DNA from: Candidatus Eiseniibacteriota bacterium | GTDB taxonomy: Bacteria; ARS69 | Direction of reading: 5' to 3' | DNA: 24,106 bases | Assembly: GCA_052390515.1 (NCBI GenBank) | Contig: JBQTGV010000147.1 | Coordinates: 1-24,106, forward strand | Shown here: positions 1 through 23,105 of the stretch, in pieces | Layout of the letters: each line of letters opens with the position of its first letter | How positions within the stretch are numbered: position 1 is the first letter of the stretch | Program-made: the position numbers and the translations under genes | Notes under the pieces: model-generated | Database searches by the model: none | Told to the model about the DNA's origin: nothing | Seen by the model: only the letters and a program-made list of their open reading frames with translations

Positions 1-34
1 ACTAACTCGCGGGTAGGAACGGCCTCGCCCTCCG

Positions 35-43
35 TGCTATCGT
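35..43 (+). promoter_or_regulatory. Putative extended -10 promoter element (TG-C-TATCGT)
   Basis: tgctatcgt at 35-43 matches the TGnTAnnnT consensus, about 50 nt upstream of the RBS-preceded TTG at 94. Confidence 0.4.
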
Positions 44-93
44 GGCGGATCGACGACCTTGCCGACCCGCCGGATCCATACCAGGAGGGTTCC

Positions 94-861
94 TTGAACC
101 GGATCCGCTCCCGATCGCCCCTGCCCGCGGCCTTGGCTGTGGCGGTGGGGCTCTTCGCCTGCGTCGCTCCGGCCCTCGCCGGCCCGTTCGACTACACCAT
201 CTTGCAGGTCTCGAACGGGACGCAGATGCAGCCGGTGATCGACTTCACCGCGCCGTACTTCCGCTTCCTGCTGACCAACGAGGGGATCGGCCCCGACAGC
301 TACTTCATGGAAGTGCGCAACCTGTCGGTCACGCCCACGCCGAACTGGTTCCCGCAGGTCTGCCTCGGCAACGTGTGCTTCGGCGACAGCACTACGATCC
401 TGTTCGCCGCAGGCAACACCGATTCGGTAGGCGTGAACGTCGTGCCGTTCTCGAACGGAGTGGGCACCTTCGACTTCCACATCGAGTCGGTCGGGGATCC
501 CGGTCTGTTCCACGATTTCATCGGACTCACCCTGTACGCCGGCACAGCGGCGGTCGGGGCCCTGGACCTGACCTCGGAGAACGATGATGTCGCGCTCTCT
601 CAGAACTTCCCGAATCCGGTGGCTCAGGGCACGCGCATCGCCTTCGCACTGGCCGCCGGCGGCAAGGTGACGCTCTCCGTGTTCGACGCAGGGGGAAGGC
701 TCGTCGACACGCTCGTGGACGGGACCCGTTCCGCAGGCGCGCATACCGTGGTCTGGTCGGCCGCCGACCGCTCCGGACACCCGCTGCCTTCCGGCGTCTA
801 CTGGTACCGGCTCAGCACGAACGGCGAAACACGCACGAAGCGGATGACGGTCATCCGATGA
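94..861 (+). CDS. Secreted Ig-like domain protein with Cx4C motif and C-terminal FlgD/T9SS-like sorting domain (~255 aa)
   Basis: AGGAGG at 83-88 precedes in-frame TTG 94. Signal peptide MNRIRSRSPLPAALAVAVGLFACVAPALA. WFPQVCLGNVCF motif. C-terminus SQNFPNP...LSVFDAGGRLV...W...SGVYWYRL is typical of FlgD_ig/Por-secretion-like tails. Confidence 0.8.
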   Translation: MNRIRSRSPLPAALAVAVGLFACVAPALAGPFDYTILQVSNGTQMQPVIDFTAPYFRFLLTNEGIGPDSYFMEVRNLSVTPTPNWFPQVCLGNVCFGDSTTILFAAGNTDSVGVNVVPFSNGVGTFDFHIESVGDPGLFHDFIGLTLYAGTAAVGALDLTSENDDVALSQNFPNPVAQGTRIAFALAAGGKVTLSVFDAGGRLVDTLVDGTRSAGAHTVVWSAADRSGHPLPSGVYWYRLSTNGETRTKRMTVIR

Positions 862-917
862 GACGGACGGTCTCGGGGGCTGGAGCGCCCCGTTCACTCC
901 CGGAAAGGAGACGGTCG

Positions 918-2957
918 ATGCGAAGGAAGTCACTCGTCGGTGCCCTCGCCTTGGCGATGAGCATCGTGGCGGTCGAGGCCGGCGCGGTCGTCCCGCGCGT
1001 GAGCCTCGTCGAGGAGTTCGGGTTCTTCACCTGAACGTTCTGCCCATACGCCCGTGCGGCGTTACGGATGCTGGCGAACGACTACCCACCCGATACCTTC
1101 TATCACATCGACTGGCACACCTCCGGTGCCCTGGCGAACGGCAGTGGCTCCGCGCGTGCTCCGTACTTCGGCGTCACCGCGACGCCCGACATCTACTTCG
1201 ACGGTATCGACAACGTGCTCGGCGCAGGGGACTCCCTGAGCGCCCACGCACAGTACGCACCGATCATGAGCTCGCACCAGACGGATCCCTCGCATTCCAA
1301 GGCGATCGTCAGCGCGGGCCTCGATCTGAACCGCGACACGATGACCGGTTCCATCACCGTGGATGTGGAAGTGGCGCCAGGCGAGACGATCACGCTCCCC
1401 GCGAACTGCTCGATCCGGGCGGCGCTGATCGAGAACGACATCGACTCCTTCCCGGGTCTCGAGCCGCACACCGGGAACCGGATCTGGCACCACGTCGGTC
1501 GCATGATGATCTTCGAGACCACGCTGACCATCACCGCGTCCGGCGAGCAGCAGCAGGTCGTCCAGGGATTCGCCATCGACCCGAACTGGAATCCCGACAA
1601 CCTCGAAGCGATCGCCTGGGTGCAGCGCAACACGAATCGGGTGACCCTGCAGGCGGCGAAGGCCACGAACCAGTACGCCGTCGAGGTGGCCGACCTCGAT
1701 CCGCTCGTCGGCAAGGTGGCCGGAGTCCCGGCGGACTACGACGTGCAGGTGACCTACACCGGCTCGGTCCCCGACGACGTGACCATCACCGTCGACGAGT
1801 CCGCGCTGCCGGCTGGCTGGGACGCGGAGATCGAGTGGATGGCGACGACGTATCCGACCTCGCTGACGATCCCGGGGATGACCAACGGTCAGATGGAGGC
1901 CGTGATCATCCGCACGATTCCGGGCGTCGGACCGGCGCCGCGCGCCGGAACGGGCCTCGGGACGATCACGGTGGAGACGGCTCCGGTCAGCAACACGTCG
2001 GTCGCCGTGCAGCAGACGTATCACACGTTCTCGAACACGCCGGCGCTGCTCTTCGTGGACGACGACAACGGCGCGGTTTTCGAGACGCACTTCACGAGCG
2101 CGCTGGCCGGCTCGGGACACTCTGCCGTGACCCGCAACGTGCAGACGCTCGGGAATCCGGAGACCGGCGACATGACCGATTACGACGCGGTCATCTGGAC
2201 CACGGGGGCGCTGGAAACCCAGACGATCGGGGTACCCGCGCAGACGTCGCTGCAGACGTATCTGGACGGCGGCGGTGCGTTCTTCCTCTCCAGCCACGGG
2301 TACCTGGACCACCAGGGCATCACGTCGTTCACGTCGACGTACCTCGGCGTGAACTCGTTCGTGGCGGACGGGCTGGCCGCCTCCGCGACCGGCGTCGCCG
2401 GTGACCCGATCGGGAACGGGCTGTCGTTCGCGCTGGCGCCGCCGTTCACGGACCGCACCGACCACGTCACGCCTGGCTTCGCCACCACCTGGCTGGAGGG
2501 CCCGGCCGGCGTGGACATCGGCGTCCGCTACGACTCCGGCGTCTTCAAGACGGTCTTCATGTCCGCGCCGTTCGAAGGCGTGCCGGCGCTGGATCAACCG
2601 ATTCTCATGGATCGGATTCTGGACTGGCTCACCGGCACCGGTGCGGTCGACGCTCCGCAGGTCGACGCGGCGGCTCGCAGTGAGCTCACGCTGTGGCAGA
2701 ACACGCCGAACCCCTTCCGCAGCGACACGGAGATCCGTTTCGAGCTGCCGCGTGCGGGAGTCGTGGATCTGGCCGTGTTCGACGTGGGTGGACGTCGGGT
2801 CGCGAGTCTCCTGAGCGGCCCGCTCGGCTCCGGCCGGCACGCGGCCACGTGGAACGGCCGCGGCGTGGACGGCAGCCCGGCGGCGTCCGGCGTGTACTTC
2901 GTGCGTCTCACGACGCCGGAACGGACGGTGACGCGGGACATGCTGCTGCTCAAGTGA
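918..2957 (+). CDS. Putative selenoprotein: secreted Omp28/thioredoxin-like protein with UxxC motif, Ig domain, VDDD-type alpha/beta domain and FlgD/T9SS-like C-terminal domain (~679 aa; in-frame TGA at 1032-1034)
   Basis: AAAGGAG (904-910) then ATG 918 gives MRRKSLVGALALAMSIVAVEAGA-VVPRVSLVEEFGFFT*TFCPYARAALR, in frame with ORF 1068..2957. It has a signal peptide, a Trx-like cis-Pro region (YFGVTATPDIYFDG), an Omp28-like HHVGR...WNPDNLEAIAWVQ segment, and a C-terminal QNTPNPF...SGVYFVRL. Confidence 0.85.
1048..1062 (+). promoter_or_regulatory. Putative bacterial SECIS element (upper stem-loop)
   Basis: acgcc (1048-1052) pairs with ggcgt (1058-1062) around the loop cGtgc. There are 18 nt between the UGA and the loop, and G is at loop position 2 followed by U, fitting the general bacterial SECIS model. 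Confidence 0.6.
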
Positions 2958-3062: not shown

Positions 3063-3782
3063 GTGCGGTCCGTCGTCCTCATCCCGACCTACAACGAAGC
3101 TCCGAACCTCGAGCGCATCGTGGCCGCCGTTCGCCGCGCGTCCCCGGACAGCGAGATCCTGGTGGTGGACGACCAGTCTCCGGACGGGACGGGGGAGATC
3201 GCCGATCGGCTCGCGGCGGCGGACCCGAAGGTGGCCGTGCTGCACCGCCGGCCACCCCGCGGGCGCGGGCTCGCCGGCCGGGACGGGTACCTGGAGGCGC
3301 TTCGCCGCGGCGCCGATGCCATCGTCGAGATGGACGCCGACTTCTCCCATGATCCGTCGCTGCTGCCGGCCTTCTTCGGCGAGATCGAGAACGGCGCGGA
3401 CGTCGTGCTCGGATCGCGCTTCGTCCCCGGCGGGACGGACGACGATCGCAGCCCGCTGCGGCGGACCATCACCGTGCTGGCGAACCGCTACATTCGCACC
3501 GTGCTCGGCGTTCCGGTGGGGGACTGCAACTCGGGCTACCGCTGCTTCCGCCGCCGGATCCTCGAGGCGATCCGGCCGGAGACGCTGACCTCGGAGGGGC
3601 CCTCCATCGTGCAGGAAGTCCTGTTCCGCGTGCACCGTGCGGGGGCCCGGATCGTGGAGATCCCCCTCGTGTTCGTCGACCGCAAGCACGGCGACTCCAA
3701 GCTCGGGCTCGGCCTGCTGCTCGACGGCTACTGGATGATCCTGCGGCTCAAGCTCGCCTCCCTTCTGGCGAGGAGCCGGTGA
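3063..3782 (+). CDS. Polyprenol-monophosphomannose synthase-like glycosyltransferase (GT2, DPM1/Ppm1-like)
   Basis: Motifs LIPTYNEAPN, VVDDQSPDGTG, EMDADFSH, VLGSRF, DCNSGYRCFRR and EIPLVFVDRKHGDSK are characteristic of the DPM1 family. Confidence 0.9.
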   Translation: MRSVVLIPTYNEAPNLERIVAAVRRASPDSEILVVDDQSPDGTGEIADRLAAADPKVAVLHRRPPRGRGLAGRDGYLEALRRGADAIVEMDADFSHDPSLLPAFFGEIENGADVVLGSRFVPGGTDDDRSPLRRTITVLANRYIRTVLGVPVGDCNSGYRCFRRRILEAIRPETLTSEGPSIVQEVLFRVHRAGARIVEIPLVFVDRKHGDSKLGLGLLLDGYWMILRLKLASLLARSR

Positions 3783-6058
3783 GCGCGCCGCTCGACCCCC
3801 TGGCGCGGAACGCGCCGCTCCGCATGGCGGCCGTCGGCGCTGTGCTCGTCGCCGCGGCGGTCATGGCATGGTTCAACATCACCGACCTGGACATCGGCGG
3901 CCACCTCGCCGTCGGTCGGGAGATCCTCAAGTCCCGCTCCATCCCCGACACGGATTTCCTGACGCACACGGTGCGCGGGAATCCGTATCCCATCCACCAG
4001 TGGCTCGGCCAGGTCATCCTCTTCGCCACCGATCATCTCTTCGGCGTGACCGGGCTCATCCTGCTGCGCATGGCCGTCGTCGTGCTGGCCGGGGTGCTGC
4101 TCTACCGCAACGCGCGCCGGGAGGACGCGCCGGTCGCGGTGTCGGCCGCGATCGTCCTCCTGCTCCTGCTCGCCGTGCGGCCGCGCATGTTCATCCGCCC
4201 CATGCTGGTGAGCCTGATCTTCCTGCCCTGGCTGCAAGCCATCGTCGGGGACGTTCGCAGCGGCAGGACGCGTCGCCTCTGGCCGATCCTGCCGATCCTC
4301 ACCGTGTGGGGGCACATCCACTCCGGCGTGCTGTTCGGCATCCTCTTCCTCGCCGGAACCGTGGCCGCCGAAGGCGTGAAGATCCTGATCGCGCGCCGGC
4401 GGGACCCCGGCGCCGAGGGATTCCCGGGCGAAGCGCTCGACGGCTGGAACTTCCGCAGGCTCGCGCTCTTCTCCGCCATCGGATCGGCGCTGCCCTTCGC
4501 CACCATGGCGCTCGTGAACCCCAGCGGCGTGAAGCCGCTCGTGCTGCCGCTGCTCTTCTTCCGGAACGACGCCTTCCGCGCCATGATTCTCGAGTACCGT
4601 CCGGTCGACCTCGCCGTCGACTGGCCGTTCGACCTGGTGGCGGGCGCGGTCCTGCTCGGGGTCCTGCTCCGGCCGCGCCGCGTCGATCTCGCCGATCTCG
4701 TCGTCGTGCTCGGGTTCGGTCTGCTCGCCTTCCAGTCGGTGCGCGCCATCGTCGAGCTTTCCGCCACCGCGGCGCCGATTCTCGCCAGGACCTGGGGATC
4801 GCTGGCCGGGGACGGATTCACCGCGATCTCCCGCGGCCGCTCCCGGCGGCGCGCCGGAGCGGGTCTGGCCAACAGCGTCGAGGCCGGCCTGCTTCTCGCG
4901 GTGATCGGCGGCGCGTTCGTCGTCTCGCTGCGCTGCACGAACGGATGGATGTATCCCTTCGGGATCGGCAAGGACCCCAAGCACTACCCCGAGCGCGCGC
5001 TGGACTTCGTCGACGCGCAGGGCGTGCGCGGCAACGTCTTCAACACCGACCTCTGGTCCGGCGCCATTCTCTGGCGCTGGCACGGCGTCGGCCATCCCGT
5101 GTTCGTGGACGCCCGGCTGGAGGCGTATCCCGAGGAGTTCTGGCGCGACGAGTACTACCGCGTGCTGCAGGCCGCGCCCGGCTGGCAGGAGGTGCTGGAC
5201 CGCCGCAAGGTGCAGTGGGCGATCCTGCGGCGCGAAGGGAAGCAGACCGACGACCGCATCGGCGAGGTGCTCTGGGAGGATCCCGCGTGGGGACTCGTCT
5301 ACTGGGACGACTACGTGATGATCTTCCTGCGGCGCGGCGGACCGTCTTCCCGGAACGACGACATCCTCGCGACGTGGGAGTTCACGTCGTTCCATCCACG
5401 CCGCTCGCAGGCGGTGCGCGATCTGCGCGGCGAGGCGCTCGTCGTCGCCGCGAACGAGCTGGCCGATCTGGTGGAGTGGACGCCGGACTCGTTCCTGCCG
5501 AGATGGGCGCTGGCCGCGGCCTGGACGCGGCTGGGGCAAGGCGAAGAGGCCGCGGCCGTCTTCGATTCCCTGGCCCGTCTCCGCGAGGCGAAAGACAACG
5601 CGCCGTTCACGCGGAGCCGCGCCGAGGCCGAGCTCGTCGCCGGCCGGCGCGCGTCTTGGGAGGCCCTGGTCCGCGAGCTGGGCCAGGATCCGGCGTCCGC
5701 GGGTGAGCTCTTCGACGCCGCGGCGCTGCTGCGTCAGGCCGGCCGCACGGCGGAGGCGGTGCAGCTCTACCGCGAGACCCTTCGTGCCGCGCCGGACCAC
5801 CTGGACGCGCGGAACAACCTCGCCCTGCTGCTCGCCTGGGACGAGGCCGGCCGCGAGGAGGCCCGGGCGTTGATCGAGGAGGTCGTGCGCCGGCGTCCCG
5901 ACGATGGCTACTTCCTGGCGTCCCGCGGCGAGATCCGCTGGCGGAGCGGCGACGCGGCCGGCGCGCTCGAGGACTTCCGCCGCGCGCTCGCACTCGTCCC
6001 CGTCACGGACGCTTCGGCCCGCGCCGAGATCGAGGCCTGGATCGCCCGCATCCCGTGA
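3779..6058 (+). CDS. Multi-pass membrane protein, putative GT-C-fold glycosyltransferase, with C-terminal TPR repeats
   Basis: About 10-12 hydrophobic segments. Acidic DLD right after TM1, followed by HLAVGREI...HQWL. The soluble C-terminal part ends in TPR-like helices (AEAVQLYRETLRAAPDHLDARNNLA; GALEDFRRALALVP). GTGA overlap with the upstream GT2. Confidence 0.7.
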   Translation: MSAPLDPLARNAPLRMAAVGAVLVAAAVMAWFNITDLDIGGHLAVGREILKSRSIPDTDFLTHTVRGNPYPIHQWLGQVILFATDHLFGVTGLILLRMAVVVLAGVLLYRNARREDAPVAVSAAIVLLLLLAVRPRMFIRPMLVSLIFLPWLQAIVGDVRSGRTRRLWPILPILTVWGHIHSGVLFGILFLAGTVAAEGVKILIARRRDPGAEGFPGEALDGWNFRRLALFSAIGSALPFATMALVNPSGVKPLVLPLLFFRNDAFRAMILEYRPVDLAVDWPFDLVAGAVLLGVLLRPRRVDLADLVVVLGFGLLAFQSVRAIVELSATAAPILARTWGSLAGDGFTAISRGRSRRRAGAGLANSVEAGLLLAVIGGAFVVSLRCTNGWMYPFGIGKDPKHYPERALDFVDAQGVRGNVFNTDLWSGAILWRWHGVGHPVFVDARLEAYPEEFWRDEYYRVLQAAPGWQEVLDRRKVQWAILRREGKQTDDRIGEVLWEDPAWGLVYWDDYVMIFLRRGGPSSRNDDILATWEFTSFHPRRSQAVRDLRGEALVVAANELADLVEWTPDSFLPRWALAAAWTRLGQGEEAAAVFDSLARLREAKDNAPFTRSRAEAELVAGRRASWEALVRELGQDPASAGELFDAAALLRQAGRTAEAVQLYRETLRAAPDHLDARNNLALLLAWDEAGREEARALIEEVVRRRPDDGYFLASRGEIRWRSGDAAGALEDFRRALALVPVTDASARAEIEAWIARIP

Positions 6059-6074
6059 CGCCGGCCGCCTCGGG

Positions 6075-6083
6075 TGCTAAGCT
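6075..6083 (+). promoter_or_regulatory. Putative extended -10 promoter (TG-C-TAAGCT) for valS
   Basis: tgctaagct about 30 nt upstream of ATG 6115. Confidence 0.4.
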
Positions 6084-6114
6084 ACGCGGTCCCTCGCGCG
6101 CGCCGGAGCCGGGA

Positions 6115-8784
<2,670 letters not shown>

Positions 8785-8786
8785 CC

Positions 8787-8813
8787 GGATCCCCGCGGGA
8801 GCCGCGGGGTTCC
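8787..8813 (+). terminator. GC-rich hairpin downstream of valS
   Basis: ccccgcgg-gag-ccgcgggg (8791-8809) with flanking gga/tcc pairing; no clear U-tract. Confidence 0.35.
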
Positions 8814-8861
8814 TCGATGTGCCCGGGCGGCGGTGCCCGCACGGCCAGGCAAGGAGGACCC

Positions 8862-10226
8862 ATGAACCCGACACGCGCCTCCCGCGCGCTCGCGCTCGGC
8901 GCCGCGGTGCTCGCCGCCGGTCCCATCCAAGCGGCGCGAGCCGGCGAGTTCCATGTGACCGTCTACAACAACGGGCTCGCGCTGGTGAAGGAGACCCGCG
9001 ACGTCGATCTCCCTCAGGGGGTGGGGGACATCTCCTTCACCGGCGTGGCGGAGCGGATCGATCCCACGTCGGTCCGCCTGGTGTCGGCGGGCGGGGACGG
9101 TCTGTCCGTTCTCGAGCAGAACTACCGCTACGACCTCGTGAGCCGGGCGAAGCTCCTGGAGCGCTACCTGGACCGGACCGCCCGCATCGTCACCAAGCAC
9201 GACAAGCTGCACGAGGGCATCCTCAAGTCGGCCGCGGGCTCGCTCATCTTGGAGACCGACGACGGCGTCGTCCTGCTCACCGAGGACGAGATCGCCGACG
9301 TCACGCTGCCGGAGATTCCGGAGGGCCTCATCACGCGGCCGACCCTGGTCTGGAAGGTCGAGAACGACGGTCCGGCCAAGCGGCCGATCGAGATCGCCTA
9401 CCTGACCGAAGGGGTGGCCTGGCACGCCGAATACGTGGCCGCAGTCGACTCCAAGGACGAGCGTCTGAACCTCTCGGGCTGGGTCTCGATCGAGAACGCT
9501 TGCGGGGCGACATTTCCGGACGCCCGGCTCAAGGTCGTCGCCGGGGACGTGCACAGGGCCGTCCGGCCGGGTTTCGGGGGCCGGCAGGCCGACGCGATGG
9601 GCATGGAGATGATGGCCAAGGCTCCCGGGTTCGAGGAGCGGAGCTTCTTCGAGTACCACATCTACGACCTTGGCCGGAGCACGACGATCGCCGATAAGGA
9701 GGTCAAGCAAATCCAGCTCCTCGAGGGCCGGGAGTTCCCGGTCCGGAAGGAGTACGTGTACGAACCGACGCGCGACGAGAAGGTCCAGGTCCGTCTCGAG
9801 TTCGAGAACACGAAGGCGAACGGTCTGGGGATCCCGCTTCCGGGCGGCAAGTTCCGGGTGTACCGCGAAGATGCGGACGGCGCCCTGGAGTTCGCCGGGG
9901 AGGACTTCCTGGATCACACCGCGCGCGACGAGGAAGTCTCGGTGTTCCTCGGGCACGCGTTCGACCTCGTGGGCGAGCGCAACGATCTCGAGAGCCGCCG
10001 CGTGGCGGACCGGATCCAGGAGACGCGCACGGAGATCAAGGTGCGCAACCGCAAGGAGAGCGGCCGCGTGAGCTTGATCGTCCGGGAGCATCCCGGGGGC
10101 GACTGGAAAGTGTTGGAGTCGACGCACGAGTGGAAGAAGCCGAACGCGCTCGACCTCGAATTCGAGATCGAGGTGCCGGCGGGAGAAGAGGTAGTGATCG
10201 GATACCGGGTCCGTTCCGAGTTCTAG
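8862..10226 (+). CDS. DUF4139 domain-containing secreted protein (~454 aa)
   Basis: AAGGAGG RBS then ATG 8862. Signal peptide followed by VTVYNNGLALVKETR, IDPTSV, EQNYRYDL, YLTEGVAWHAEY, FEYHIYDL, GLGIPLPGGKFRVY and GEDFLDHT. Confidence 0.85.
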   Translation: MNPTRASRALALGAAVLAAGPIQAARAGEFHVTVYNNGLALVKETRDVDLPQGVGDISFTGVAERIDPTSVRLVSAGGDGLSVLEQNYRYDLVSRAKLLERYLDRTARIVTKHDKLHEGILKSAAGSLILETDDGVVLLTEDEIADVTLPEIPEGLITRPTLVWKVENDGPAKRPIEIAYLTEGVAWHAEYVAAVDSKDERLNLSGWVSIENACGATFPDARLKVVAGDVHRAVRPGFGGRQADAMGMEMMAKAPGFEERSFFEYHIYDLGRSTTIADKEVKQIQLLEGREFPVRKEYVYEPTRDEKVQVRLEFENTKANGLGIPLPGGKFRVYREDADGALEFAGEDFLDHTARDEEVSVFLGHAFDLVGERNDLESRRVADRIQETRTEIKVRNRKESGRVSLIVREHPGGDWKVLESTHEWKKPNALDLEFEIEVPAGEEVVIGYRVRSEF

Positions 10227-10233
10227 GCAGGCG

Positions 10234-11280
10234 ATGGACACGCTCGGAACCTTCCTGAAGCAGGGGCGCGAGGTGCGGGGCCTCTCGCTCGACGAGCTGG
10301 CGGTGCGCACGCGCATCCGCGTGGAGAACCTGCGCTCGCTGGAGCGCGAGGATCTGGACTCGCTGCCCACGGACACGTACGTGCGCGGGTTCGTGCGGCA
10401 GGTCTGCCGCGAGCTCGGGCTTGAGCCCACCGACGGCATCATCCGCTACGAGACGCTGCGCCGTCAGGCCACCCCGCCGGACGAGACGACGTGGGCCGAG
10501 GAGGTCGCCGAGGAGGACCCGGGCTTCCTCGAGCGTGTGCTGCGCGACCCCGACCGCGTCGTCCGCGTGGCGAGCCGCGCCGGCAAGTGGGTGGGTCTGG
10601 CCGCGGGAGCGGGGGCGCTCGCCTTGCTGGCGGTGGCCGCGCTGCGCGGACCGGATCGGCAGGATGCCCGCGCCGAGTCGACACGGGCCGTGGCGAAGGC
10701 CGAGACCCCGCTGGTCTCGACGACGGAGGCGAAGTCCCCGGAATCCAACGCGGTCGTGAAGACGACCGCTCCCGATCCGGCTCCCACCGTGGCGAAGCCG
10801 ACCGCGCCCGTTCCGGCTCCCGCTGTGACGAAGACGAAGGCTCCGGATCCGGCGGCCTCCGCGGCCGCGCAGCCCTCGACGGTCGTCGCGAAGCCGGTGC
10901 CTTCTCAGGCCAAGACGCCTGCACGAACCGTCGACACGCCGGCGAAGGCGGCGCCGGTCGTCCAGGCTCCGGTGGTCCGGGCTCAGGCCGTCCAACCGCC
11001 GCCGGTCCGCTCACCGGCCGATGCCTCCGGCTCCGCGCAGCGCGTGCTCCGGGTCGAGGCGCTTCGCCCGGTGGAGGTCTCCGTCCTTCTCGACGGCGCC
11101 GGCCACGCGCGCAAGGGATCGCTCGCCGCCGGCGAGACGCGCACGTGGAAGGCGGAGCAGCTCTTCGTGCTCAGCGCGTCGGACGGCGGAGCGGTTCGCC
11201 TCTTCCTCGACGATCAGCCGATGGGCACGGCGGGCGGGGACGGCCAGGCCGTGAAGGGTCTGCGGATCCGCCCGCGCTGA
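10234..11280 (+). CDS. rodZ: RodZ-like cytoskeleton protein (N-terminal HTH, TM helix, Pro/Ala/Thr-rich linker, DUF4115 domain)
   Basis: TLGTFLKQGREVRGLSLDELAVRTRI...LPTDTYVRGF HTH; one TM segment; low-complexity linker; C-terminal beta domain (GSLAAGETRTW...DGGAVRL...G). Confidence 0.8.
   Translation: MDTLGTFLKQGREVRGLSLDELAVRTRIRVENLRSLEREDLDSLPTDTYVRGFVRQVCRELGLEPTDGIIRYETLRRQATPPDETTWAEEVAEEDPGFLERVLRDPDRVVRVASRAGKWVGLAAGAGALALLAVAALRGPDRQDARAESTRAVAKAETPLVSTTEAKSPESNAVVKTTAPDPAPTVAKPTAPVPAPAVTKTKAPDPAASAAAQPSTVVAKPVPSQAKTPARTVDTPAKAAPVVQAPVVRAQAVQPPPVRSPADASGSAQRVLRVEALRPVEVSVLLDGAGHARKGSLAAGETRTWKAEQLFVLSASDGGAVRLFLDDQPMGTAGGDGQAVKGLRIRPR
10753..10855 (+). repeat. About three imperfect 36-bp tandem repeats inside the RodZ linker
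   Basis: aag codons at 10759, 10795 and 10831 start KTTAPDPAPTVA / KPTAPVPAPAVT / KTKAPDPA. Confidence 0.7.
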
Positions 11281-11527: not shown

Positions 11528-11592
11528 CGCGCCTCCCGCGTGAGAGTACTACGGCGCGGCCGGTGCCCGCTGCCCTTCACGGCCCCGGTTCG

Positions 11593-11621
11593 TTGACAGC
11601 CCCGGCGTGCTCTTCTAGCCT
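11593..11621 (+). promoter_or_regulatory. Sigma70-type promoter TTGACA-N17-TAGCCT
   Basis: Perfect -35 at 11593-11598, 17-nt spacer, -10 at 11616-11621, upstream of the antiporter. Confidence 0.65.
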
Positions 11622-11623
11622 CG

Positions 11624-13051
11624 GTGCCCACGCCGGGCGAACCTCTCCCGCAGGAGCGGATCCTGATCCACGACGCCGCCGCGAGCCTCGGAACGCGACT
11701 GCCCTTGTGGAGCGTGGCGCCCTTCGCGGGGATGCTGCTCTCCATCGCCCTCTTCCCGCTGATCGCTCCGCACTTCTGGCACCGGAACTTCCCCAAGGTG
11801 GCGCTCGCGTGGGCGCTGGCCTTCGCTCTGCCGTTCCTGGCTTCCTTCGGGGAGGAGGCCGTCGACGCCATCCTGCACATCTACCTGATCGACTACGTGC
11901 CATTCCTGATCCTGCTGTGGTCGCTCTTCACCGTGGCCGGCGGCATCTACGTCGGCGGCAGCCTTCGTGGGACGCCCGGGTCCAACGCCCTCCTGCTGCT
12001 CATCGGCGCGCTGCTGGCTTCGTGGATCGGCACGACCGGCGCGGCGATGGTGATGATCCGGCCCCTGCTCCGCGCGAACGCATGGCGCCGCCACAACGTG
12101 CACATCGTCGTCTTCTTCATCTTCCTCGTGGCGAACGTGGGGGGCTCGCTCACGCCGCTCGGCGATCCGCCGCTCTTCCTCGGCTTCCTGCACGGCGTGC
12201 CCTTCTTCTGGGTCACGCGGCATCTGCTGCCGCACACTCTGCTGATCGCCGCGGTCCTCCTGGCTGTCTTCTGGCTGCTCGATCGCCGCGCGTACGCGCG
12301 GGAGGAACGGCCGCCGGAAAAGCGCGCGCCCCGCGAGCCGCGCGTGCGCATCGAGGGCTGGCACAACCTGCTCTTCCTCGCCGGGATCATGGGCGCGGTG
12401 CTCTTCTCCGGGAGCGTGCAGCTCGCGCACCTGCCGGTGCACGGCCACGTGCACGTGGAGGTCCAGAACCTCGTCCGCGACGGCGTGCTGGTGCTCATGG
12501 GACTCCTCTCCCTGGCCACCACGTCCGCGGGCGTCCGGCAGAGGAACGAGTTCTCCTGGTTTCCGATCCTGGAGGTCGCGTACCTCTTCGCCGGGATCTT
12601 CATGACCATCATCCCCGCGCTCGAGATCCTGAAGGCCGGCGAAGCGGGAGCGCTGGCCGGCGTGATCCATGCCGTTCGCGAACCGGTGCACTACTTCTGG
12701 GTAGCAGGTGGGCTCTCCAGCTTCCTGGACAACGCTCCGACGTACCTGACCTTCTTCAACAGCGCGCTCGGCACGCTCGGCGTCCCGGAGAGCGCGGTGC
12801 CCGGCATGCTCGGCTACGCGGCAGCGGAGCTGCGCAACGAGTGGTTCATCGAGACGCTCACCGCGATCGCGGCCGGGTCGGTGTTCATGGGTGCGAACAC
12901 GTACATCGGCAACGCCCCGAACTTCATGGTGAAGTCCATCGCGGAGGAGGCCGGGATCGCCATGCCGTCCTTCTTCGGCTACCTGCTGCGCTACTCGATC
13001 CCGATCCTCGTGCCGACGTTCCTCCTCGTGACTCTGGTATTCTTCCGATGA
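11624..13051 (+). CDS. Sodium:proton antiporter-like / putative citrate transporter (ion transporter superfamily)
   Basis: Many TM helices. Motifs IGTTGAAM, FIFLVANVGGSLTPLGDPPLFLGFL, LSSFLDNAPTY, GANTYIGNAPNFMVK and MPSFFGY. Start uncertain (GTG 11624 or CTG 11663). Confidence 0.85.
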   Translation: MPTPGEPLPQERILIHDAAASLGTRLPLWSVAPFAGMLLSIALFPLIAPHFWHRNFPKVALAWALAFALPFLASFGEEAVDAILHIYLIDYVPFLILLWSLFTVAGGIYVGGSLRGTPGSNALLLLIGALLASWIGTTGAAMVMIRPLLRANAWRRHNVHIVVFFIFLVANVGGSLTPLGDPPLFLGFLHGVPFFWVTRHLLPHTLLIAAVLLAVFWLLDRRAYAREERPPEKRAPREPRVRIEGWHNLLFLAGIMGAVLFSGSVQLAHLPVHGHVHVEVQNLVRDGVLVLMGLLSLATTSAGVRQRNEFSWFPILEVAYLFAGIFMTIIPALEILKAGEAGALAGVIHAVREPVHYFWVAGGLSSFLDNAPTYLTFFNSALGTLGVPESAVPGMLGYAAAELRNEWFIETLTAIAAGSVFMGANTYIGNAPNFMVKSIAEEAGIAMPSFFGYLLRYSIPILVPTFLLVTLVFFR

Positions 13052-13064
13052 GAGGAGGAGGCGC

Positions 13065-13658
13065 TTGAGTCCTGGAGCGAAGGGTCCACGCCCGACCTTC
13101 CGCGAGTTGCTGGTCGAGGGTGGTGCCGAGCGATGCGAGGGCCTGCTGCTCGGGCTGATCCTGGGTTCGGGCTCCGGCGCGCGCATCCTCTTCTGCGAGG
13201 AGTCCGGCATCGCCACGCCGCTCGGGGAGCGGCTCCTGCAGTTCGCCCGACTGCGCGCGGGCGGCACTCACCTGGTGACCGACTCCGAGGGGCACCGGTT
13301 GATTCACCAGCACGCGAAGGGACTGGCCGACGCGGGTTTGCGGATCGTGGAGGAGCGCAAGGTCGTGGAAGGGCGCTTCCGCTACCGTTTCCGCGCCTAC
13401 GCCCGGCGCTACGGGCAGGAGATCCAGGAGCTCCTCGAGTCTCTGCCCCGCGAGCTGCGCCACGAGCCGGGGAAACGCCACGAGACGGTCGACCCGCGGG
13501 CCACCGCGACCGAGGGTTACGCTCCGGTGCACGACTACGAGATCGAGGGGGACGGTGTCGTGCGCGGCGCGCGCATCGATCTGCTCGTGGAAGCGCGGCG
13601 GGCACTCGACGATCACCCGCTGGTCAAGGCGGAGCCCATCGAGCTGGAGTCGGCGTAG
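13065..13658 (+). CDS. Hypothetical protein (197 aa)
   Basis: Strong GAGGAGGAGG RBS before TTG 13065, directly after the antiporter; codon usage is typical of the region; no family recognised. Confidence 0.7.
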   Translation: MSPGAKGPRPTFRELLVEGGAERCEGLLLGLILGSGSGARILFCEESGIATPLGERLLQFARLRAGGTHLVTDSEGHRLIHQHAKGLADAGLRIVEERKVVEGRFRYRFRAYARRYGQEIQELLESLPRELRHEPGKRHETVDPRATATEGYAPVHDYEIEGDGVVRGARIDLLVEARRALDDHPLVKAEPIELESA

Positions 13659-13660
13659 GA

Positions 13661-13808
13661 GCGTCGCGGGGAGAGTTCTACTTCGGCCGAGCGTCGTAGC
13701 CGCCGAGAGCGGAGCCATGGACGGCGGAGCCCGGCGGCCACGATGCGAGCGAGCCACGGATGGCGAGCGAGCTTGAGCGAGGCCGAAGTAGAACTCTCTC
13801 CGCGACGC
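13661..13808. repeat. 148-bp element with 28-bp terminal inverted repeats (MITE/REP-like or bidirectional terminator structure)
   Basis: gcgtcgcggggagagttctacttcggcc (13661-13688) matches the reverse complement of 13781-13808 at 27/28 positions; it lies between convergent stop codons. Confidence 0.75.
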
Positions 13809-13815
13809 GACGCCC

Positions 13816-14802
13816 CTATGCGAGCGTCGCCACCATCACCGCCTTGATCGTGTGCAGCCGGTTCTCCGCCTGATCGAAGACGCGCGACCCTTTGCCCTCG
13901 AACACGCCGTCGGTCGCTTCGCGGATGTCCGGGAACTTCCGCCCGATCTCGGTCTTGTCGTCGTGGAAGCAGGGCAGGCAGTGCAGGAAGATCACGTCGG
14001 GCTGACCCGCGGCGGCGAGCAGCTCCTCGGTGACACGGTACTTGCCGAGCAGCCGGATGCGCTCGGGGATCTTGTCCTCTTCGCCCATGGAGGCCCACAC
14101 GTCCGTGTACACGACCTTCGTCCCGGCAACGGCCTTCTCCGCGGAGTCGGTCACGGTGATCTTCGCGCCGGTCTCCGCGGCAATGGCCCGGCAGCGTTCC
14201 AGCAGCGCGCGGTCCGGCTGCAGGGATGGCGGCGCACCGATGCGGAAGTCGAGCCCCATCTTGGACGAGGCGACGAGCAGGGAGTTCGCGACGTTGTTGC
14301 GTCCGTCGCCGACGTAAGTGAAGGGGACGCCGCGCAGGTTCCGGCCGAAGGCCTGCTGCACGGTCATCAAGTCCGCGAGCGCCTGGGTGGGGTGGAAGCG
14401 GTCGGTCAGCGCGTTCCACACCGGAACGCCGGCGTTGGCCGCCAGCTCCTCCGCGGTCTCGTGGGCGAAGCCGCGGTACATGATGCCGTCGAACATGCGC
14501 CCGAGCACGCGGGCCACGTCCTCCACGCTCTCCTTCACGCCGAAGCGGATTTCGTCGCGGCCGAGGTACTCGGTGTGCGCGCCCTCGTCGTAGGCGGCGA
14601 CGACCGTGGCGGCGCGGGTTCTGGTGGACGGCTTCTCGAACACGATGGCGACGCTCTTGCCGTCGAGACGTCGCTTGCGCACGCCGCGCGCCTTCTCCGC
14701 TTCGAGCTCGTGGGAGAGGTCCAGGAGGTGCGCGATCTCGTCGGGGGAGTAGTCCAGCAGGGTGAGGAAGTGGCGGCCGCGCAGATCCAGCGTCACGGGC
14801 AT
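13816..14802 (-). CDS. argF: Ornithine carbamoyltransferase (probably catabolic, ArcB-type by context)
   Basis: FEKPSTRTR, HPTQALAD, GDGRNNV, YTDVWASMG, HCLP and QAENRLH motifs; directly downstream of arcA. Confidence 0.95.
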   Translation of the reverse strand: MPVTLDLRGRHFLTLLDYSPDEIAHLLDLSHELEAEKARGVRKRRLDGKSVAIVFEKPSTRTRAATVVAAYDEGAHTEYLGRDEIRFGVKESVEDVARVLGRMFDGIMYRGFAHETAEELAANAGVPVWNALTDRFHPTQALADLMTVQQAFGRNLRGVPFTYVGDGRNNVANSLLVASSKMGLDFRIGAPPSLQPDRALLERCRAIAAETGAKITVTDSAEKAVAGTKVVYTDVWASMGEEDKIPERIRLLGKYRVTEELLAAAGQPDVIFLHCLPCFHDDKTEIGRKFPDIREATDGVFEGKGSRVFDQAENRLHTIKAVMVATLA

Positions 14803-14818
14803 TCGGGTCCTCCCTGGG

Positions 14819-16039
14819 TCAGAGGGGATCGCGGAGGATCGGCTGCGTCATGCAGCGGCTGCCACCCCGTCCCCGGCAGAGCTCGGAAGCGTCCAGCTCC
14901 AGCACCTCGACGCCCGCGTCCGAGAGGCGCCGGTTGGTGACCGAATTACGCATGTAGCCGACGACGACCCCCGGCGCGAGCGCGAGCGTGTTGTGGCCGT
15001 CGTCCCACTGCTCCCGCACGAAGCCGATCTCGTCCTCGCCGGAGGCGATGAACTTGAGCGGGCGGTCGAGGCACCGCGTGAGCGCGTCCTCGAGGCCCTT
15101 CGCCTTGGTCACGGAGAGATCGGCGCCGGCTCCACGGCGGAGGATGAAGACGTCCATTCCCTTCCGCACGCCGGGGAAGAAGTTGAACTTGTCCACGTCC
15201 ACCATGGTGAGCACGGTGTCGAGGTGCATGATGGCGCGGCCTTTGCGGAAGTGCGCCACGATGACGTTCTCGAACGACTCCTCGCCGAGGAGGCGATGCG
15301 CCAGCAGCTCGGCAGCGGCCGGCGCCGAGCGCTCCCCGCAGCCGACGAGCAGGGTCCGCTCGTCGAGGACGAGGACGTCGCCACCCTCCAGCGACGCCGG
15401 GTACGCGTGCACCGGCTCGCGGCCGTACCAGAACGTGAGATCGTGTCCGCGGAATGCGGGATGATGGCGATAGATGGCGCGGAGGAAGACGGATTCGCGG
15501 CTGCGGGCCGGCGAGGCCAGCACGGAGAGCGCCACGCCCGACCCGATCCAAGCGGCGCTGTCCCGCGTGAAGAACAGGTTGGGCATGGGGTGCAGCACGT
15601 AGTCGTAGCGGTCGGAGAGCGCGTCGGCGAAGAGCGGATCGACGCCCAGCTTCTTGAGCTCCCGCTTGGGCAGCCCGCCGATCAGGCAGTCGAGCAGCCG
15701 TTCCATCGGGCACTCGCGCAGCACCTCGCGGAGCCGGCCCGACACCTTCATGCCGCAGGACCGCGGCGTGACCACCTCGTCGACGAGCTGGCCGCGCACC
15801 TCGGAATCACGAAGCGTCTCGCCCAGCAGATCCCGGAGGTAGAGCACCTCGGCACCGCGGCCGCGGAGGATGGCGACGAAGCGGTCGTGCTCCTCCTGCG
15901 CGCGCTCTGTCCACAGGATGTCGTCGAAGAGCATCGCGTCCTTGTTGAGCGGCGTGAGGCGGGCGATCTCGACGCCGGGGCGATGCACCAGCACCTTGCG
16001 CAGCGGGCCGATCTCGGACGCGACGCGATGGCCGGACAT
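14819..16039 (-). CDS. arcA: Arginine deiminase
   Basis: SEIGPLRKVLVHRPG, LFDD, PMPNLFFTRD, LEGGD, MHLDT and ELCRGRGGSRCMT (catalytic Asp/Glu/His/Cys present). Confidence 0.95.
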   Translation of the reverse strand: MSGHRVASEIGPLRKVLVHRPGVEIARLTPLNKDAMLFDDILWTERAQEEHDRFVAILRGRGAEVLYLRDLLGETLRDSEVRGQLVDEVVTPRSCGMKVSGRLREVLRECPMERLLDCLIGGLPKRELKKLGVDPLFADALSDRYDYVLHPMPNLFFTRDSAAWIGSGVALSVLASPARSRESVFLRAIYRHHPAFRGHDLTFWYGREPVHAYPASLEGGDVLVLDERTLLVGCGERSAPAAAELLAHRLLGEESFENVIVAHFRKGRAIMHLDTVLTMVDVDKFNFFPGVRKGMDVFILRRGAGADLSVTKAKGLEDALTRCLDRPLKFIASGEDEIGFVREQWDDGHNTLALAPGVVVGYMRNSVTNRRLSDAGVEVLELDASELCRGRGGSRCMTQPILRDPL

Positions 16040-16217
16040 GGAGGCTCCAGGGGCGGCGGTTGCGGTTCCGGGTACGGGGGCACATCCCCGGAGTCGACAT
16101 CTTGAGGCAGGCGGCCGGAAAGTTCAAGGGCCGCCGCGCCGATGATGGGCGCCGGCGATGGGGCGGCGGGAGTTGGGAGCCGTGGTCTCGGCACGCGAGG
16201 TCGGATATGCTGCCGCC

Positions 16218-17411: not shown

Positions 17412-17419
17412 GGGCGGGA

Positions 17420-17439
17420 GGTCAGGGGCACCCCTGACC
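17420..17439. terminator. Short hairpin after the acyl-CoA dehydrogenase stop
   Basis: ggtcaggg-gcac-ccctgacc; no U-tract. Confidence 0.35.
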
Positions 17440-17517
17440 CAGTCCTCCGGCCCACATCGCCAGGTCGACGACGCCGACCAGGTGACGCGCGCGACGAGCA
17501 GGTCGAGCGATGCCGCG

Positions 17518-17550
17518 CTGCGGCCGTCTCCTGCATCGAGACGGCCGCAG
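17518..17550. terminator. 13-bp perfect hairpin downstream of the NHL gene, between convergent genes
   Basis: ctgcggccgtctc (17518-17530), 7-nt loop, gagacggccgcag (17538-17550). Confidence 0.5.
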
Positions 17551-17568
17551 GAACGCAGCGGCGAACGA

Positions 17569-21086: not shown

Positions 21087-21087
21087 C

Positions 21088-21924: not shown

Positions 21925-21951
21925 GCACGCTCCCCGGGACAAGCTCCCGGC

Positions 21952-22017
21952 AACCTACGACGGCCCCGGGTAGCGGGGCAAGCGCGACTTGCCGGAGCCC
22001 CCGGCGGCGTCTATGCT
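21952..22017. promoter_or_regulatory. Divergent back-to-back sigma70-like promoters
   Basis: Plus strand: TTGCCG (21989-21994)-N17-TATGCT (22012-22017). Minus strand: TTGCCC (21981-21976)-N18-TAGGTT (21957-21952). Confidence 0.5.
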
Positions 22018-22024
22018 CGGCGCC

Positions 22025-23089: not shown

Positions 23090-23105
23090 CGGGGAGGCCG
23101 AAACG

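What the first reader, a model, noticed from the sequence alone, without database searches (positions are those of the whole stretch)
918..2957. Hidden secreted selenoprotein candidate: Omp28/thioredoxin-like protein with UxxC encoded by in-frame TGA
Seen: RBS AAAGGAG, ATG 918, a 23-aa signal peptide (ending AGA), then VSLVEEFGFFT-[TGA 1032]-TFCPYARAAL, continuing in frame into the 629-aa ORF the track starts at 1068. The TGA (codon 39) sits at the nucleophilic position of a Trx-type CxxC, with Cys42 as the resolving residue. Without readthrough the gene yields only a 38-aa peptide, and the downstream ORF has no signal peptide, RBS or active site. Established: bacterial selenoproteins often carry UxxC in Trx folds and are routinely split or truncated by gene callers. 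Inference: an exported multidomain (Omp28-like + Ig + VDDD domain + FlgD/T9SS-like tail) Sec-dependent thiol oxidoreductase; I do not know of a characterised selenoprotein with this exported architecture.
Basis: partly seen in the sequence, partly recalled or inferred. Interest (0 to 1): 0.92.

Follow-up and report, generated by a model that had tools for sequence, protein, structure and literature searches.

The report
Exported thioredoxin-like selenoprotein gene, mis-annotated
The "stop" codon near the start of this gene almost certainly encodes selenocysteine in the active site of an exported, thioredoxin-like surface protein. Gene callers cut the gene short, but it is a distant cousin of a selenoprotein group catalogued since 2008.

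Summary
In detail: ATG 918, in-frame TGA 1032-1034 (codon 39) and a 679-aa read-through product.

**Evidence that the TGA codes for selenocysteine**
- The TGA sits at the same UxxCP site in 20 gene copies, covering all 12 genomes held for this phylum and 2 genomes of other families.
- Eight paralogues or distant homologues, and one full-length database protein, have Cys there.
- A hairpin starting 11 nt after the TGA is kept by compensatory changes in the Sec copies, not in the Cys copies.
- The genome has selA, selB, selD and tRNA-Sec.
- Contigs from four runs keep the TGA.

**What the protein is**
- Sec39 lies at the nucleophile position of a thioredoxin fold.
- The closest solved structure is P. 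gingivalis HBP35.
- A type IX secretion tail is present.

**Novelty**
It is a sub-threshold relative of NCBIfam NF045500, "Omp28-related selenoprotein", which is GOS_C of Zhang and Gladyshev 2008. So it is a divergent, longer variant of a known kind. This scan has noted the same kind of gene in at least 10 other genomes.

Function is inferred, not shown.

The parts
902..911 (+). Shine-Dalgarno-like GGAAAGGAGA, 6 nt before the ATG
   Evidence: Read directly.
918..2957 (+). Complete selenoprotein gene: 679 codons with Sec at codon 39, plus the TGA stop at 2955-2957
   Evidence: translation with TGA=U. The full-length alignment to 13 homologues is conserved from the N-terminus to the last residue.
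918..986 (+). Probable signal peptide (residues 1-23); inferred
   Evidence: Sequence features. Comparable hydrophobic N-termini occur in all aligned homologues. pLDDT is below 50 for residues 1-23. No predictor was run.
1032..1034 (+). TGA = selenocysteine codon (U39), first position of UxxC
   Evidence: The same codon at the same site in 20 places; TGC in 8 others. It aligns to the first Cys of CPHC in PDB 1fo5 and of CGYC in HBP35.
1041..1043 (+). Cys42, resolving residue of UxxC, followed by invariant Pro43
   Evidence: C42 and P43 are invariant.
1046..1064 (+). SECIS-like hairpin, 11 nt after the TGA. Core stem 1048-1052 / 1058-1062, loop CGUGC 1053-1057
   Evidence: Alignment A1. In one search, 87.2% of 133 cells are paired against 71.2% when shuffled (0/500), and 22 double-change cells against 8.2 (0/500); slid registers give 34-54%. 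Sec copies 6.1/7 pairs, Cys copies 3.75/7.
1002..1283 (+). Thioredoxin fold (residues 29-122), with U39 at the N-end of helix 1 and cis-Pro-type P90 (1185-1187)
   Evidence: AF2 models (beta-alpha-beta-alpha-beta-beta-alpha). Profile hit to thioredoxin 1fo5, E 2.1e-7. P90 is invariant.
1302..1667 (+). Beta-sandwich that completes the Omp28/HBP35-like module (residues 129-250)
   Evidence: Pfam Omp28, residues 82-249, 29.4 bits (cut-off 34.9). Foldseek: HBP35 5y1a TMq 0.73, Omp28 domain 2r2c TMt 0.69.
1680..2033 (+). Ig-like beta-sandwich (residues 255-372)
   Evidence: All-beta segment with high pLDDT. No family hit.
2046..2633 (+). Alpha/beta domain beginning LLFVDDD (residues 377-572); fold probably ThuA/DUF4159-like; function unknown
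   Evidence: Alternating strands and helices. GH42 enzymes appear among the whole-model Foldseek hits. Sequence hints are weak only: DUF7408 in 4 of 13 members, ThuA in 2 of 13, DUF4159 in 2 of 13, best E 0.014. Nothing significant in PDB by profile.
2706..2954 (+). C-terminal sorting domain (residues 597-679), FlgD_ig / T9SS type A
   Evidence: Pfam FlgD_ig 31.2 bits (cut-off 27). TIGR04183 Por_Secre_tail 31.5 bits (cut-off 23).

Best explanation
Window 918-2957 is one gene for a 679-residue selenoprotein.

**Decoding.** SelB and tRNA-Sec read UGA 1032-1034 as selenocysteine, directed by a small hairpin that starts 11 nt downstream.

**Domains, in order.** Signal peptide; thioredoxin fold with Sec39-x-x-Cys42-Pro; an Omp28/HBP35-type beta-sandwich; an Ig-like domain; an alpha/beta domain of unknown role; and a FlgD_ig/T9SS-type C-terminal sorting domain.

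**Inferred mechanism.**
- The protein crosses the inner membrane by the Sec pathway.
- The genome's SprA-type type IX translocon takes it to the cell surface or the medium.
- There it acts as a selenol/thiol-disulfide oxidoreductase. Sec39 is the attacking nucleophile, and Cys42 resolves the mixed selenenylsulfide.

**Shown versus inferred.** Shown: the conserved TGA, Cys alternation, hairpin covariation, Sec machinery, the fold and the sorting-domain match. Inferred: actual Sec insertion, export route, final location, substrate and the direction of the redox reaction.
For: **1. Conserved TGA.** All 11 of 11 other genomes of the family, which are the only other genomes held for the phylum, carry a homologue with exactly one in-frame TGA. 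Two genomes of other families do too. In register it is UxxC in 20 distinct places and CxxC in 8.

**2. Coding conservation on both sides.** R27, E32, C42 and P43 are invariant or nearly so, and similarity runs to the C-terminus (22-54% identity over the full length).

**3. A full-length Cys orthologue.** P0019 (686 aa, 46% identity) has CPYCP and a signal-peptide-like N-terminus.

**4. Hairpin.** Seven pairs at columns 15-33 after the TGA:
- 87.2% of cells paired, against 71.2 +/- 2.4 when shuffled (0/500).
- 22 cells changed on both sides, against 8.2 (0/500).
- Slid registers give only 34-54%.
- Synonymous Ala/Leu codon changes compensate for Tyr-to-Trp or Tyr-to-Phe changes.
- Cys copies pair at only 3.75 of 7, against 6.1 of 7 for Sec copies.

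**5. Sec machinery in the genome (95% complete).**
- selA 541 bits, selB 371 bits and selD 427 bits, all over their cut-offs.
- tRNA-Sec 71.8 bits, with anticodon TCA by ARAGORN.
- selA is found in 11 of 12 genomes of the phylum; the one miss is 82% complete.

**6. TGA is otherwise a stop here.** The gene itself ends at TGA. selA, selB, selD and ValRS are read without internal stops under table 11.

**7. Fold.**
- AF2 pLDDT is 84 for the whole protein and 92 for the N-module.
- U39 sits at the N-end of helix 1, and P90 is invariant.
- The profile hits thioredoxin 1fo5 at E 2.1e-7, with CPHCP aligned on UxxCP.
- HBP35 5y1a is the best structural match: E 1.9e-12, TMq 0.73.
- HBP35 showed CxxC-dependent thioredoxin activity in vitro (PMC2907840, abstract).

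**8. Export signals.** TIGR04183 scores 31.5 bits, over its cut-off of 23. A SprA homologue is present: 221.6 bits for the best stretch, 521 bits summed, in a 2105-aa frame.

**9. Assemblies.** Contigs from 4 of 4 runs laid, from 4 studies, bridge 1032-1034 with no difference there. One of them is a roughly 93%-identical relative. One run may be the source sample.
Against: - No physical evidence of selenium in the protein, and no RNA run was available.
- The window's own hairpin is short (5 core pairs). The 71-nt stretch folds no better than shuffles: z -0.56, with 53 of 200 shuffles at least as stable.
- RNAalifold on its own kept only 4 pairs, at -1.98 kcal/mol.
- No Rfam family matches; the 3 matches are chance-level, E at or above 3.4.
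- The hairpin lies in conserved coding sequence and the sequences are related, which inflates shuffle statistics. I also derived the structure from these same sequences.
- The family models are missed: NF045500 scores 57.8 bits against a cut-off of 200, and Pfam Omp28 scores 29.4 against 34.9.
- Pfam Por_Secre_tail is below its cut-off (17.1 against 27), and PorV-like hits are below theirs (69.6 against 250). So the T9SS route is likely, not proven.
- No electron donor for a surface-exposed redox protein is evident in the neighbourhood, which holds glycosyltransferase, TPR and ValRS genes.
Confidence: 0.85

Rival explanations
1. The TGA is a true stop. The locus is a nonsense pseudogene, or it makes a 38-aa peptide plus a separately started 629-aa cytoplasmic protein from ATG 1068.
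For: Gene callers and public collections list only the short form: 26 of 27 non-window full-type homologues are 533-630 aa. The window's own hairpin is not unusually stable. HBP35 is reported to give shorter products as well as the 40-kDa form (PMC2907840, abstract).
Against: A nonsense mutation would not be kept at one codon in 20 copies that are only 23-58% identical, with the upstream 38 codons still conserved as protein. Met51 is not conserved; L024, L025 and L030 have no Met there. Without the upstream part, the protein loses its signal peptide while keeping a secretion tail.
Confidence: 0.03
2. Sequencing or assembly error: the true codon is TGC, TGT or TGG.
For: The window comes from a 223-contig draft.
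Against: Contigs from 4 runs in 4 studies bridge the site unchanged. Eleven other genomes and 2 of other families have TGA at the same site.
Confidence: 0.01
3. The TGA is read through as something other than Sec: Trp, Gly or Cys by a reassigned code or a near-cognate tRNA.
For: Open reading under TGA=sense is compatible with any sense meaning.
Against: TGA ends this gene and several orthologues. Housekeeping genes have no internal TGA. The aligned residue in homologues is always Cys. A complete Sec system and a position-specific hairpin are present.
Confidence: 0.02
4. It is a real selenoprotein, but the UxxC pair is mainly a ligand-binding site rather than a catalytic redox centre. Candidates are haem as in HBP35, or a soft metal or metalloid such as Hg, Cu or As. 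The protein would then serve uptake or sequestration at the cell surface.
For: The best structural match, HBP35, binds hemin and is needed for growth under hemin limitation (PMC2907840, abstract; fold match). Several catalogued prokaryotic selenoproteins are metal-binding proteins (PMC13188914, Table 1 passages). No reductant supply is obvious for a surface protein.
Against: The site has every mark of a redox-active Trx motif: the N-cap of helix 1, the resolving Cys three residues on, and the cis-Pro loop. HBP35 itself has CxxC-dependent thioredoxin activity. I did not check whether HBP35's hemin-binding residues are conserved here.
Confidence: 0.2

Closest known systems
NCBIfam NF045500 'Omp28-related selenoprotein' = 'hypothetical protein GOS_C' (Zhang and Gladyshev 2008, PMC2398784; equated in Table 1 of PMC13188914)
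   Same: A Trx-like fold with a conserved UxxC, Cys homologues, and a bacterial SECIS-like hairpin after the TGA; function uncharacterised (passages read). The model aligns to residues 20-249 here at E 1.2e-15.
   Different: It scores 57.8 bits against a curated cut-off of 200. Homologues in 5 other genomes also score only 31-73 bits, so this branch lies outside the model. Here the module is followed by about 430 further residues: an Ig-like domain, an alpha/beta domain and a T9SS-type tail. I could not see GOS_C sequences (supplements are closed), so their architecture is unknown to me.
HBP35, 35-kDa hemin-binding protein of Porphyromonas gingivalis (PDB 5Y1A)
   Same: It is the best structural match of the N-terminal module (E 1.9e-12, TMq 0.73). 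Its CGYC motif aligns on UxxC. It also has a C-terminal domain for cell-surface attachment, and a thioredoxin activity that depends on the two Cys (PMC2907840, abstract).
   Different: HBP35 has Cys, not Sec. Identity is only 14%. It is about 340 aa and lacks the Ig-like and alpha/beta domains. Hemin binding was not examined here.
Omp28 outer-membrane lipoprotein family (Pfam PF11551; PDB 2R2C domain; NCBIfam NF033782)
   Same: The beta-sandwich half resembles the solved Omp28 domain (TMt 0.69). Pfam Omp28 aligns to residues 82-249.
   Different: It is below both cut-offs: 29.4 against 34.9 and 21.3 against 150. No lipobox is evident: there is no Cys in the N-terminal 38 residues.
Thioredoxin/glutaredoxin-type UxxC selenoproteins and predicted exported forms (thiol:disulfide interchange, DsbA-like and DsbG-like selenoproteins in Table 1 of PMC13188914)
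   Same: Sec replaces the N-terminal Cys of CxxC in a Trx fold. The profile hits thioredoxin 1fo5 at E 2.1e-7.
   Different: This is a multidomain surface-type architecture with a T9SS tail. In the searched library, only one paper holds both 'type IX secretion' and 'selenocysteine', and its title is unrelated (listing only).
E. coli fdhF-type bacterial SECIS (recalled, not from a call)
   Same: A small stem-loop that begins about 11 nt after the UGA, with G/U in the apical loop. Here the spacer is 11 nt and the loop is CGUGC.
   Different: The stem is shorter, and no bulged U was examined. SelB binding is untested.

Membership tests
Bacterial selenoprotein gene (SelB-dependent UGA recoding) | In-frame UGA aligned with Cys in homologues, with coding conservation on both sides | tested here: met
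   20 TGA and 8 TGC places in register. Full-length Cys form P0019. Conserved flanks.
Bacterial selenoprotein gene (SelB-dependent UGA recoding) | SECIS stem-loop immediately downstream of the UGA | tested here: met
   A conserved hairpin 11 nt after the TGA with compensatory changes, absent from Cys copies. Caveats: the window's own fold has z -0.56, RNAalifold keeps 4 pairs, and there is no Rfam match.
Bacterial selenoprotein gene (SelB-dependent UGA recoding) | selA, selB, selD and tRNA-Sec in the genome | tested here: met
   all four are over the curated cut-offs, and the anticodon is TCA.
Bacterial selenoprotein gene (SelB-dependent UGA recoding) | Selenium physically present in the protein | not testable with these tools
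   Needs 75Se labelling or mass spectrometry.
NCBIfam NF045500 Omp28-related selenoprotein (GOS_C) | HMM score at or above the curated cut-off (200 bits) | tested here: not met
   57.8 bits on the protein and 52.9 bits on the genome. Relatives score 31-73 bits.
NCBIfam NF045500 Omp28-related selenoprotein (GOS_C) | Trx-like fold with a conserved UxxC | tested here: met
   The description of GOS_C was read.
Pfam PF11551 Omp28 | Score at or above the gathering cut-off (34.9 bits) | tested here: not met
   29.4 bits. Structural likeness to 2r2c, TMt 0.69.
Thioredoxin-fold CxxC oxidoreductases | Beta-alpha-beta-alpha-beta-beta-alpha core, the redox pair at the N-end of helix 1, and a cis-Pro loop | tested here: met
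   DSSP of the models. Invariant P90. Alignment to 1fo5, with CPHCP and VPT matched.
Thioredoxin-fold CxxC oxidoreductases | Thiol-disulfide exchange activity | not testable with these tools
   Needs an enzyme assay.
T9SS type A cargo | C-terminal sorting domain | tested here: met
   TIGR04183 scores 31.5 bits against a cut-off of 23. Pfam Por_Secre_tail is below its cut-off, 17.1 against 27.
T9SS type A cargo | N-terminal Sec-type signal peptide | tested here: inconclusive
   Typical features are seen and are conserved in homologues. No predictor was run.
T9SS type A cargo | T9SS machinery in the genome | tested here: inconclusive
   A SprA homologue is over its cut-off. PorV-like hits are below theirs. 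PorU and GldKLMN were not searched.

The most novel reading that the evidence does not exclude
This may be a selenoenzyme displayed outside the outer membrane by type IX secretion.
- It is kept in every sampled genome of a small candidate phylum, and that phylum also keeps the full Sec machinery.
- No selenocysteine formate dehydrogenase was found in this genome with the one query tried.
- It could therefore be one of the main reasons the lineage retains selenocysteine.
- Its fused alpha/beta domain could dock an as yet unknown extracellular substrate or electron source.

If so, this would be a surface redox chemistry with no characterised precedent.
Probability: 0.12. Interest if true: 0.6.

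Novelty: new variant of a known kind. Interest (0 to 1): 0.36.

Why it matters
**Annotation.** The gene is listed in public collections only as a truncated 'hypothetical protein', missing its signal peptide and active site. Correcting it restores a complete exported redox protein.

**Biology.**
- It adds a long, T9SS-tailed branch to the Omp28/GOS_C-type selenoproteins. The current curated model does not capture this branch.
- Selenocysteine is used in a protein apparently destined for the cell surface.
- The Sec form is kept in all 12 genomes held for this phylum, and selA was found in 11 of the 12.

The function of the whole group is still untested. A tractable homologue could therefore open the biochemistry of a selenoprotein family known only from sequence since 2008.

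Tried and rejected
- **Rfam scan of 900-1200.** Only three chance-level matches.
- **The search for related loci with alignment A3.** With the single protein it found no confirmed relative in genome contigs, so I have no organism names for the relatives.
- **Profile of the alpha/beta domain against PDB.** Only E at or above 0.05, to unrelated sedlin/TRAPPC2 chains; rejected as chance. Pfam gave only weak ThuA, DUF4159 and DUF7408 hints.
- **Formate dehydrogenase alpha (TIGR01553) in the genome.** No match near the cut-off and none with an internal TGA.
- **RNA evidence.** No RNA holder was listed.
- **Paper searches.** No paper holds both 'Omp28' and 'selenoprotein'. BSepDB (PMC13326102) does not mention GOS_C, NF045500 or Omp28 in its main text.
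- A malformed search term; not repeated.
- **Neighbouring genes as functional partners.** Considered and dropped. Glycosyltransferase 2, a TPR protein and ValRS give no redox link.
Full report
**1. Observation**

One search shows a Shine-Dalgarno-like GGAAAGGAGA at 902-911, ATG at 918 and TGA at 1032-1034 in the same frame. With TGA read as U, 918-2954 is one open frame of 679 residues ending at a TGA stop at 2955-2957.
- U is residue 39.
- The motif is U39-T-F-C42-P.
- Residues 1-23 look like a signal peptide.

The 629-aa ORF 1068..2957 is what a standard ORF list reports.

**2. Is the TGA a selenocysteine codon?**

*Homologues.* A six-frame search with the first 261 residues covered 61 genomes, the window's own plus 60 others. 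All 11 of 11 genomes of the same family matched, each with a homologue containing exactly one in-frame TGA. Two genomes of other families (G046, G013) matched in the same way.

I examined the 30 loci returned:
- 29 had a [U/C]xxC motif in register. One of these was a duplicate of another place, which leaves 28 distinct places.
- One locus was a fragment lacking the N-terminus.
- Of the 28 distinct places, 20 have TGA and 8 have TGC.

The 38 codons upstream of the TGA are conserved as protein: a hydrophobic leader, then V-x-R-x-x-x-x-E-E-x-G. The downstream sequence aligns to the C-terminus. A search at phylum level found that only 12 genomes are held for this phylum, all of one family, and all 12 have the TGA form.

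In the public protein collection, 26 of the 27 non-window homologues of the long type are 533-630 aa and cover 79-93% of the query. I checked two of them, and both begin after the TGA. The one full-length entry, P0019 (686 aa), has CPYCP at the site.

*Recoding signal.* Twenty TGA-containing sequences aligned from the TGA onward share a hairpin at columns 15-33. In the window this is 1046-1064, with core stem 1048-1052 / 1058-1062 and loop CGUGC, 11 nt after the TGA. Counts on the seven pairs:

| Measure | Observed | Shuffled |
|---|---|---|
| Cells paired (of 133) | 87.2% | 71.2 +/- 2.4% (0 of 500 reach it) |
| Cells changed on both sides | 22 | 8.2 +/- 2.2 (0 of 500) |
| Covariation score | 0.455 | 0.167 (0 of 500) |
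| Slid registers, cells paired | - | 34-54% |

The changes are telling. Where Tyr (TAC) becomes Trp (TGG) or Phe (TTC), synonymous or conservative changes in the Ala and Leu/Asn codons on the 3' arm restore pairing. The eight Cys copies pair at only 3.75 of 7 positions, against 6.1 of 7 in the Sec copies.

Limits on this evidence:
- The window's own 71-nt stretch is no more stable than shuffles (z -0.56).
- RNAalifold alone retains only four pairs.
- No Rfam model matches.
- The structure was derived from these related coding sequences.

*Machinery.* The genome (95% complete, 223 contigs) has the full Sec set:
- selA 541 bits, selB 371 bits and selD 427 bits.
- tRNA-Sec 71.8 bits, with anticodon TCA.
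- selA is found in 11 of the 12 genomes of the phylum; the miss is an 82%-complete genome.

TGA is otherwise a stop here. It ends this gene, and housekeeping genes have no internal TGA.

*Assembly.* Contigs from four public runs in four studies bridge 1032-1034 with no difference there. One of them differs at 40 other positions over 556 bases. One run may be the source sample, and these are contigs, not raw reads.

**3. What the protein is**

AlphaFold2 with the 14-sequence alignment gives mean pLDDT 84. The N-terminal module alone gives 92.

| Residues | Feature |
|---|---|
| 1-23 | Probable signal peptide |
| 29-122 | Thioredoxin fold (beta-alpha-beta-alpha-beta-beta-alpha); U39 just before helix 42-55; invariant Pro90 before strand 3 |
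| 129-250 | Beta-sandwich (Omp28/HBP35-type) |
| 255-372 | Ig-like sandwich |
| 377-572 | Alpha/beta domain starting LLFVDDD |
| 597-679 | C-terminal sorting domain |

- A profile of the N-module hits thioredoxin 1fo5 at E 2.1e-7. Its CPHCP aligns on UxxCP and its VPT on the cis-Pro loop. HBP35's CGYCP aligns on the same site.
- By structure, the best PDB match of the module is HBP35 of P. gingivalis (5y1a; E 1.9e-12, TMq 0.73). It is followed by Atu2684 (2axo) and the Omp28 domain (2r2c).
- HBP35 is a surface protein with a C-terminal sorting domain. It has CxxC-dependent thioredoxin activity and binds hemin (PMC2907840, abstract).
- The tail matches FlgD_ig (31.2 bits, cut-off 27) and TIGR04183 T9SS type A (31.5 bits, cut-off 23).
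- The genome has a SprA-type translocon. PorV-like hits are below their cut-off.
- The alpha/beta domain has only weak ThuA, DUF4159 and DUF7408 hints and no conserved Cys or His. Its role is unknown.

**4. Mechanism**

Shown:
- a conserved recoded UGA with its hairpin;
- the Sec machinery in the genome;
- a thioredoxin-type active site with Sec at the nucleophile position;
- an export-type architecture.

Inferred:
- the protein crosses the inner membrane by the Sec pathway;
- it leaves through the type IX system;
- it acts at the cell surface as a selenol/thiol-disulfide oxidoreductase, with Sec39 attacking and Cys42 resolving.

A ligand-binding role (haem or soft metals) is the main functional rival, at about 0.2. 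The pseudogene, assembly-error and alternative-code readings are together below 0.1.

**5. Comparison with what is known**

NCBIfam NF045500, 'Omp28-related selenoprotein', aligns to residues 20-249 at E 1.2e-15, but with 57.8 bits against a cut-off of 200. Homologues in five other genomes also stay at 31-73 bits.

Table 1 of a 2026 review lists NF045500 as 'hypothetical protein GOS_C', with UxxC (PMC13188914, passages). The 2008 paper describes GOS_C as follows (PMC2398784, passages):
- 74 Sec and 312 Cys sequences;
- a SECIS-like element;
- no functional evidence.

So the kind is known. This branch is outside the curated model, is longer by about 430 residues and carries a T9SS-type tail. 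In the searched library, no paper holds both 'Omp28' and 'selenoprotein'. Only one holds both 'type IX secretion' and 'selenocysteine', and its title is unrelated (listing only).

Earlier notes of this scan report the same kind of gene in at least 10 other genomes, with the same verdict. I reached my reading before consulting them, and I checked the shared claims (NF045500 = GOS_C; HBP35 as closest structure) myself.

**6. Verdict**

This is a correct call on a real, mis-annotated selenoprotein gene. It is a divergent, multidomain variant of a catalogued but uncharacterised family. It is solid and useful for annotation, and moderately interesting biologically.

Noticed in passing
window 18637-19581 (-): A Cys paralogue of the same module: CxxC motif ACGEC, 314 aa, with a FlgD_ig tail. 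Its only nearby ATG lies 14 codons before the motif and 2 nt after the stop of the M32 carboxypeptidase gene (19584-21104, -). It therefore seems to lack the signal peptide that its orthologues in other genomes have.
   Followed up: partly
window 1-861 (+): A 5'-cut ORF ending in a FlgD_ig/Por_Secre_tail domain lies 56 nt upstream of the selenoprotein gene. In relatives, a weakly similar Omp28-like gene without an in-frame TGA lies just upstream of the Sec gene. This is probably a tandem paralogue pair.
   Followed up: partly
G011:C6:1152050-1155071; G004:C1:2994200-2997021; L040, L041, L046: Relatives carry two Sec-type copies in tandem, and also short Sec forms of about 260 aa without the C-terminal domains (motif U-P-N/T-C-P). 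The family is a small multigene set with repeated Sec use.
   Followed up: no
L032 (G005:C8) and L044 (G005:C16): Two Sec-type copies in one 73%-complete genome are split into two frames, near residue 220 and near residue 156. These are possible frameshifts or assembly errors.
   Followed up: no
G000:C71:17887-21956 (-): No selenocysteine-type formate dehydrogenase was found with TIGR01553; the best match is 58.9 bits. A 1204-aa frame with weak similarity to molybdopterin oxidoreductases lies next to selB.
   Followed up: no
window residues about 178-186 of the selenoprotein (about 1449-1475): Five of 13 aligned homologues have a C-C-E-P di-cysteine in the beta-sandwich, and a sixth has C-C-G-T. 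The window's protein has F-P-G-L-E-P there instead.
   Followed up: no
window 11563-18480 (+) and 20938-23476: Several long ORFs (about 330-800 aa) have no Pfam match at E <= 0.001. In this high-GC sequence some may be spurious. Identified genes include GT2 (3063-3782), a TPR protein (3779-6058), ValRS (6055-8784), a DUF4139/4140 protein (8229-10226) and a RodZ-like protein (10234-11280).
   Followed up: no
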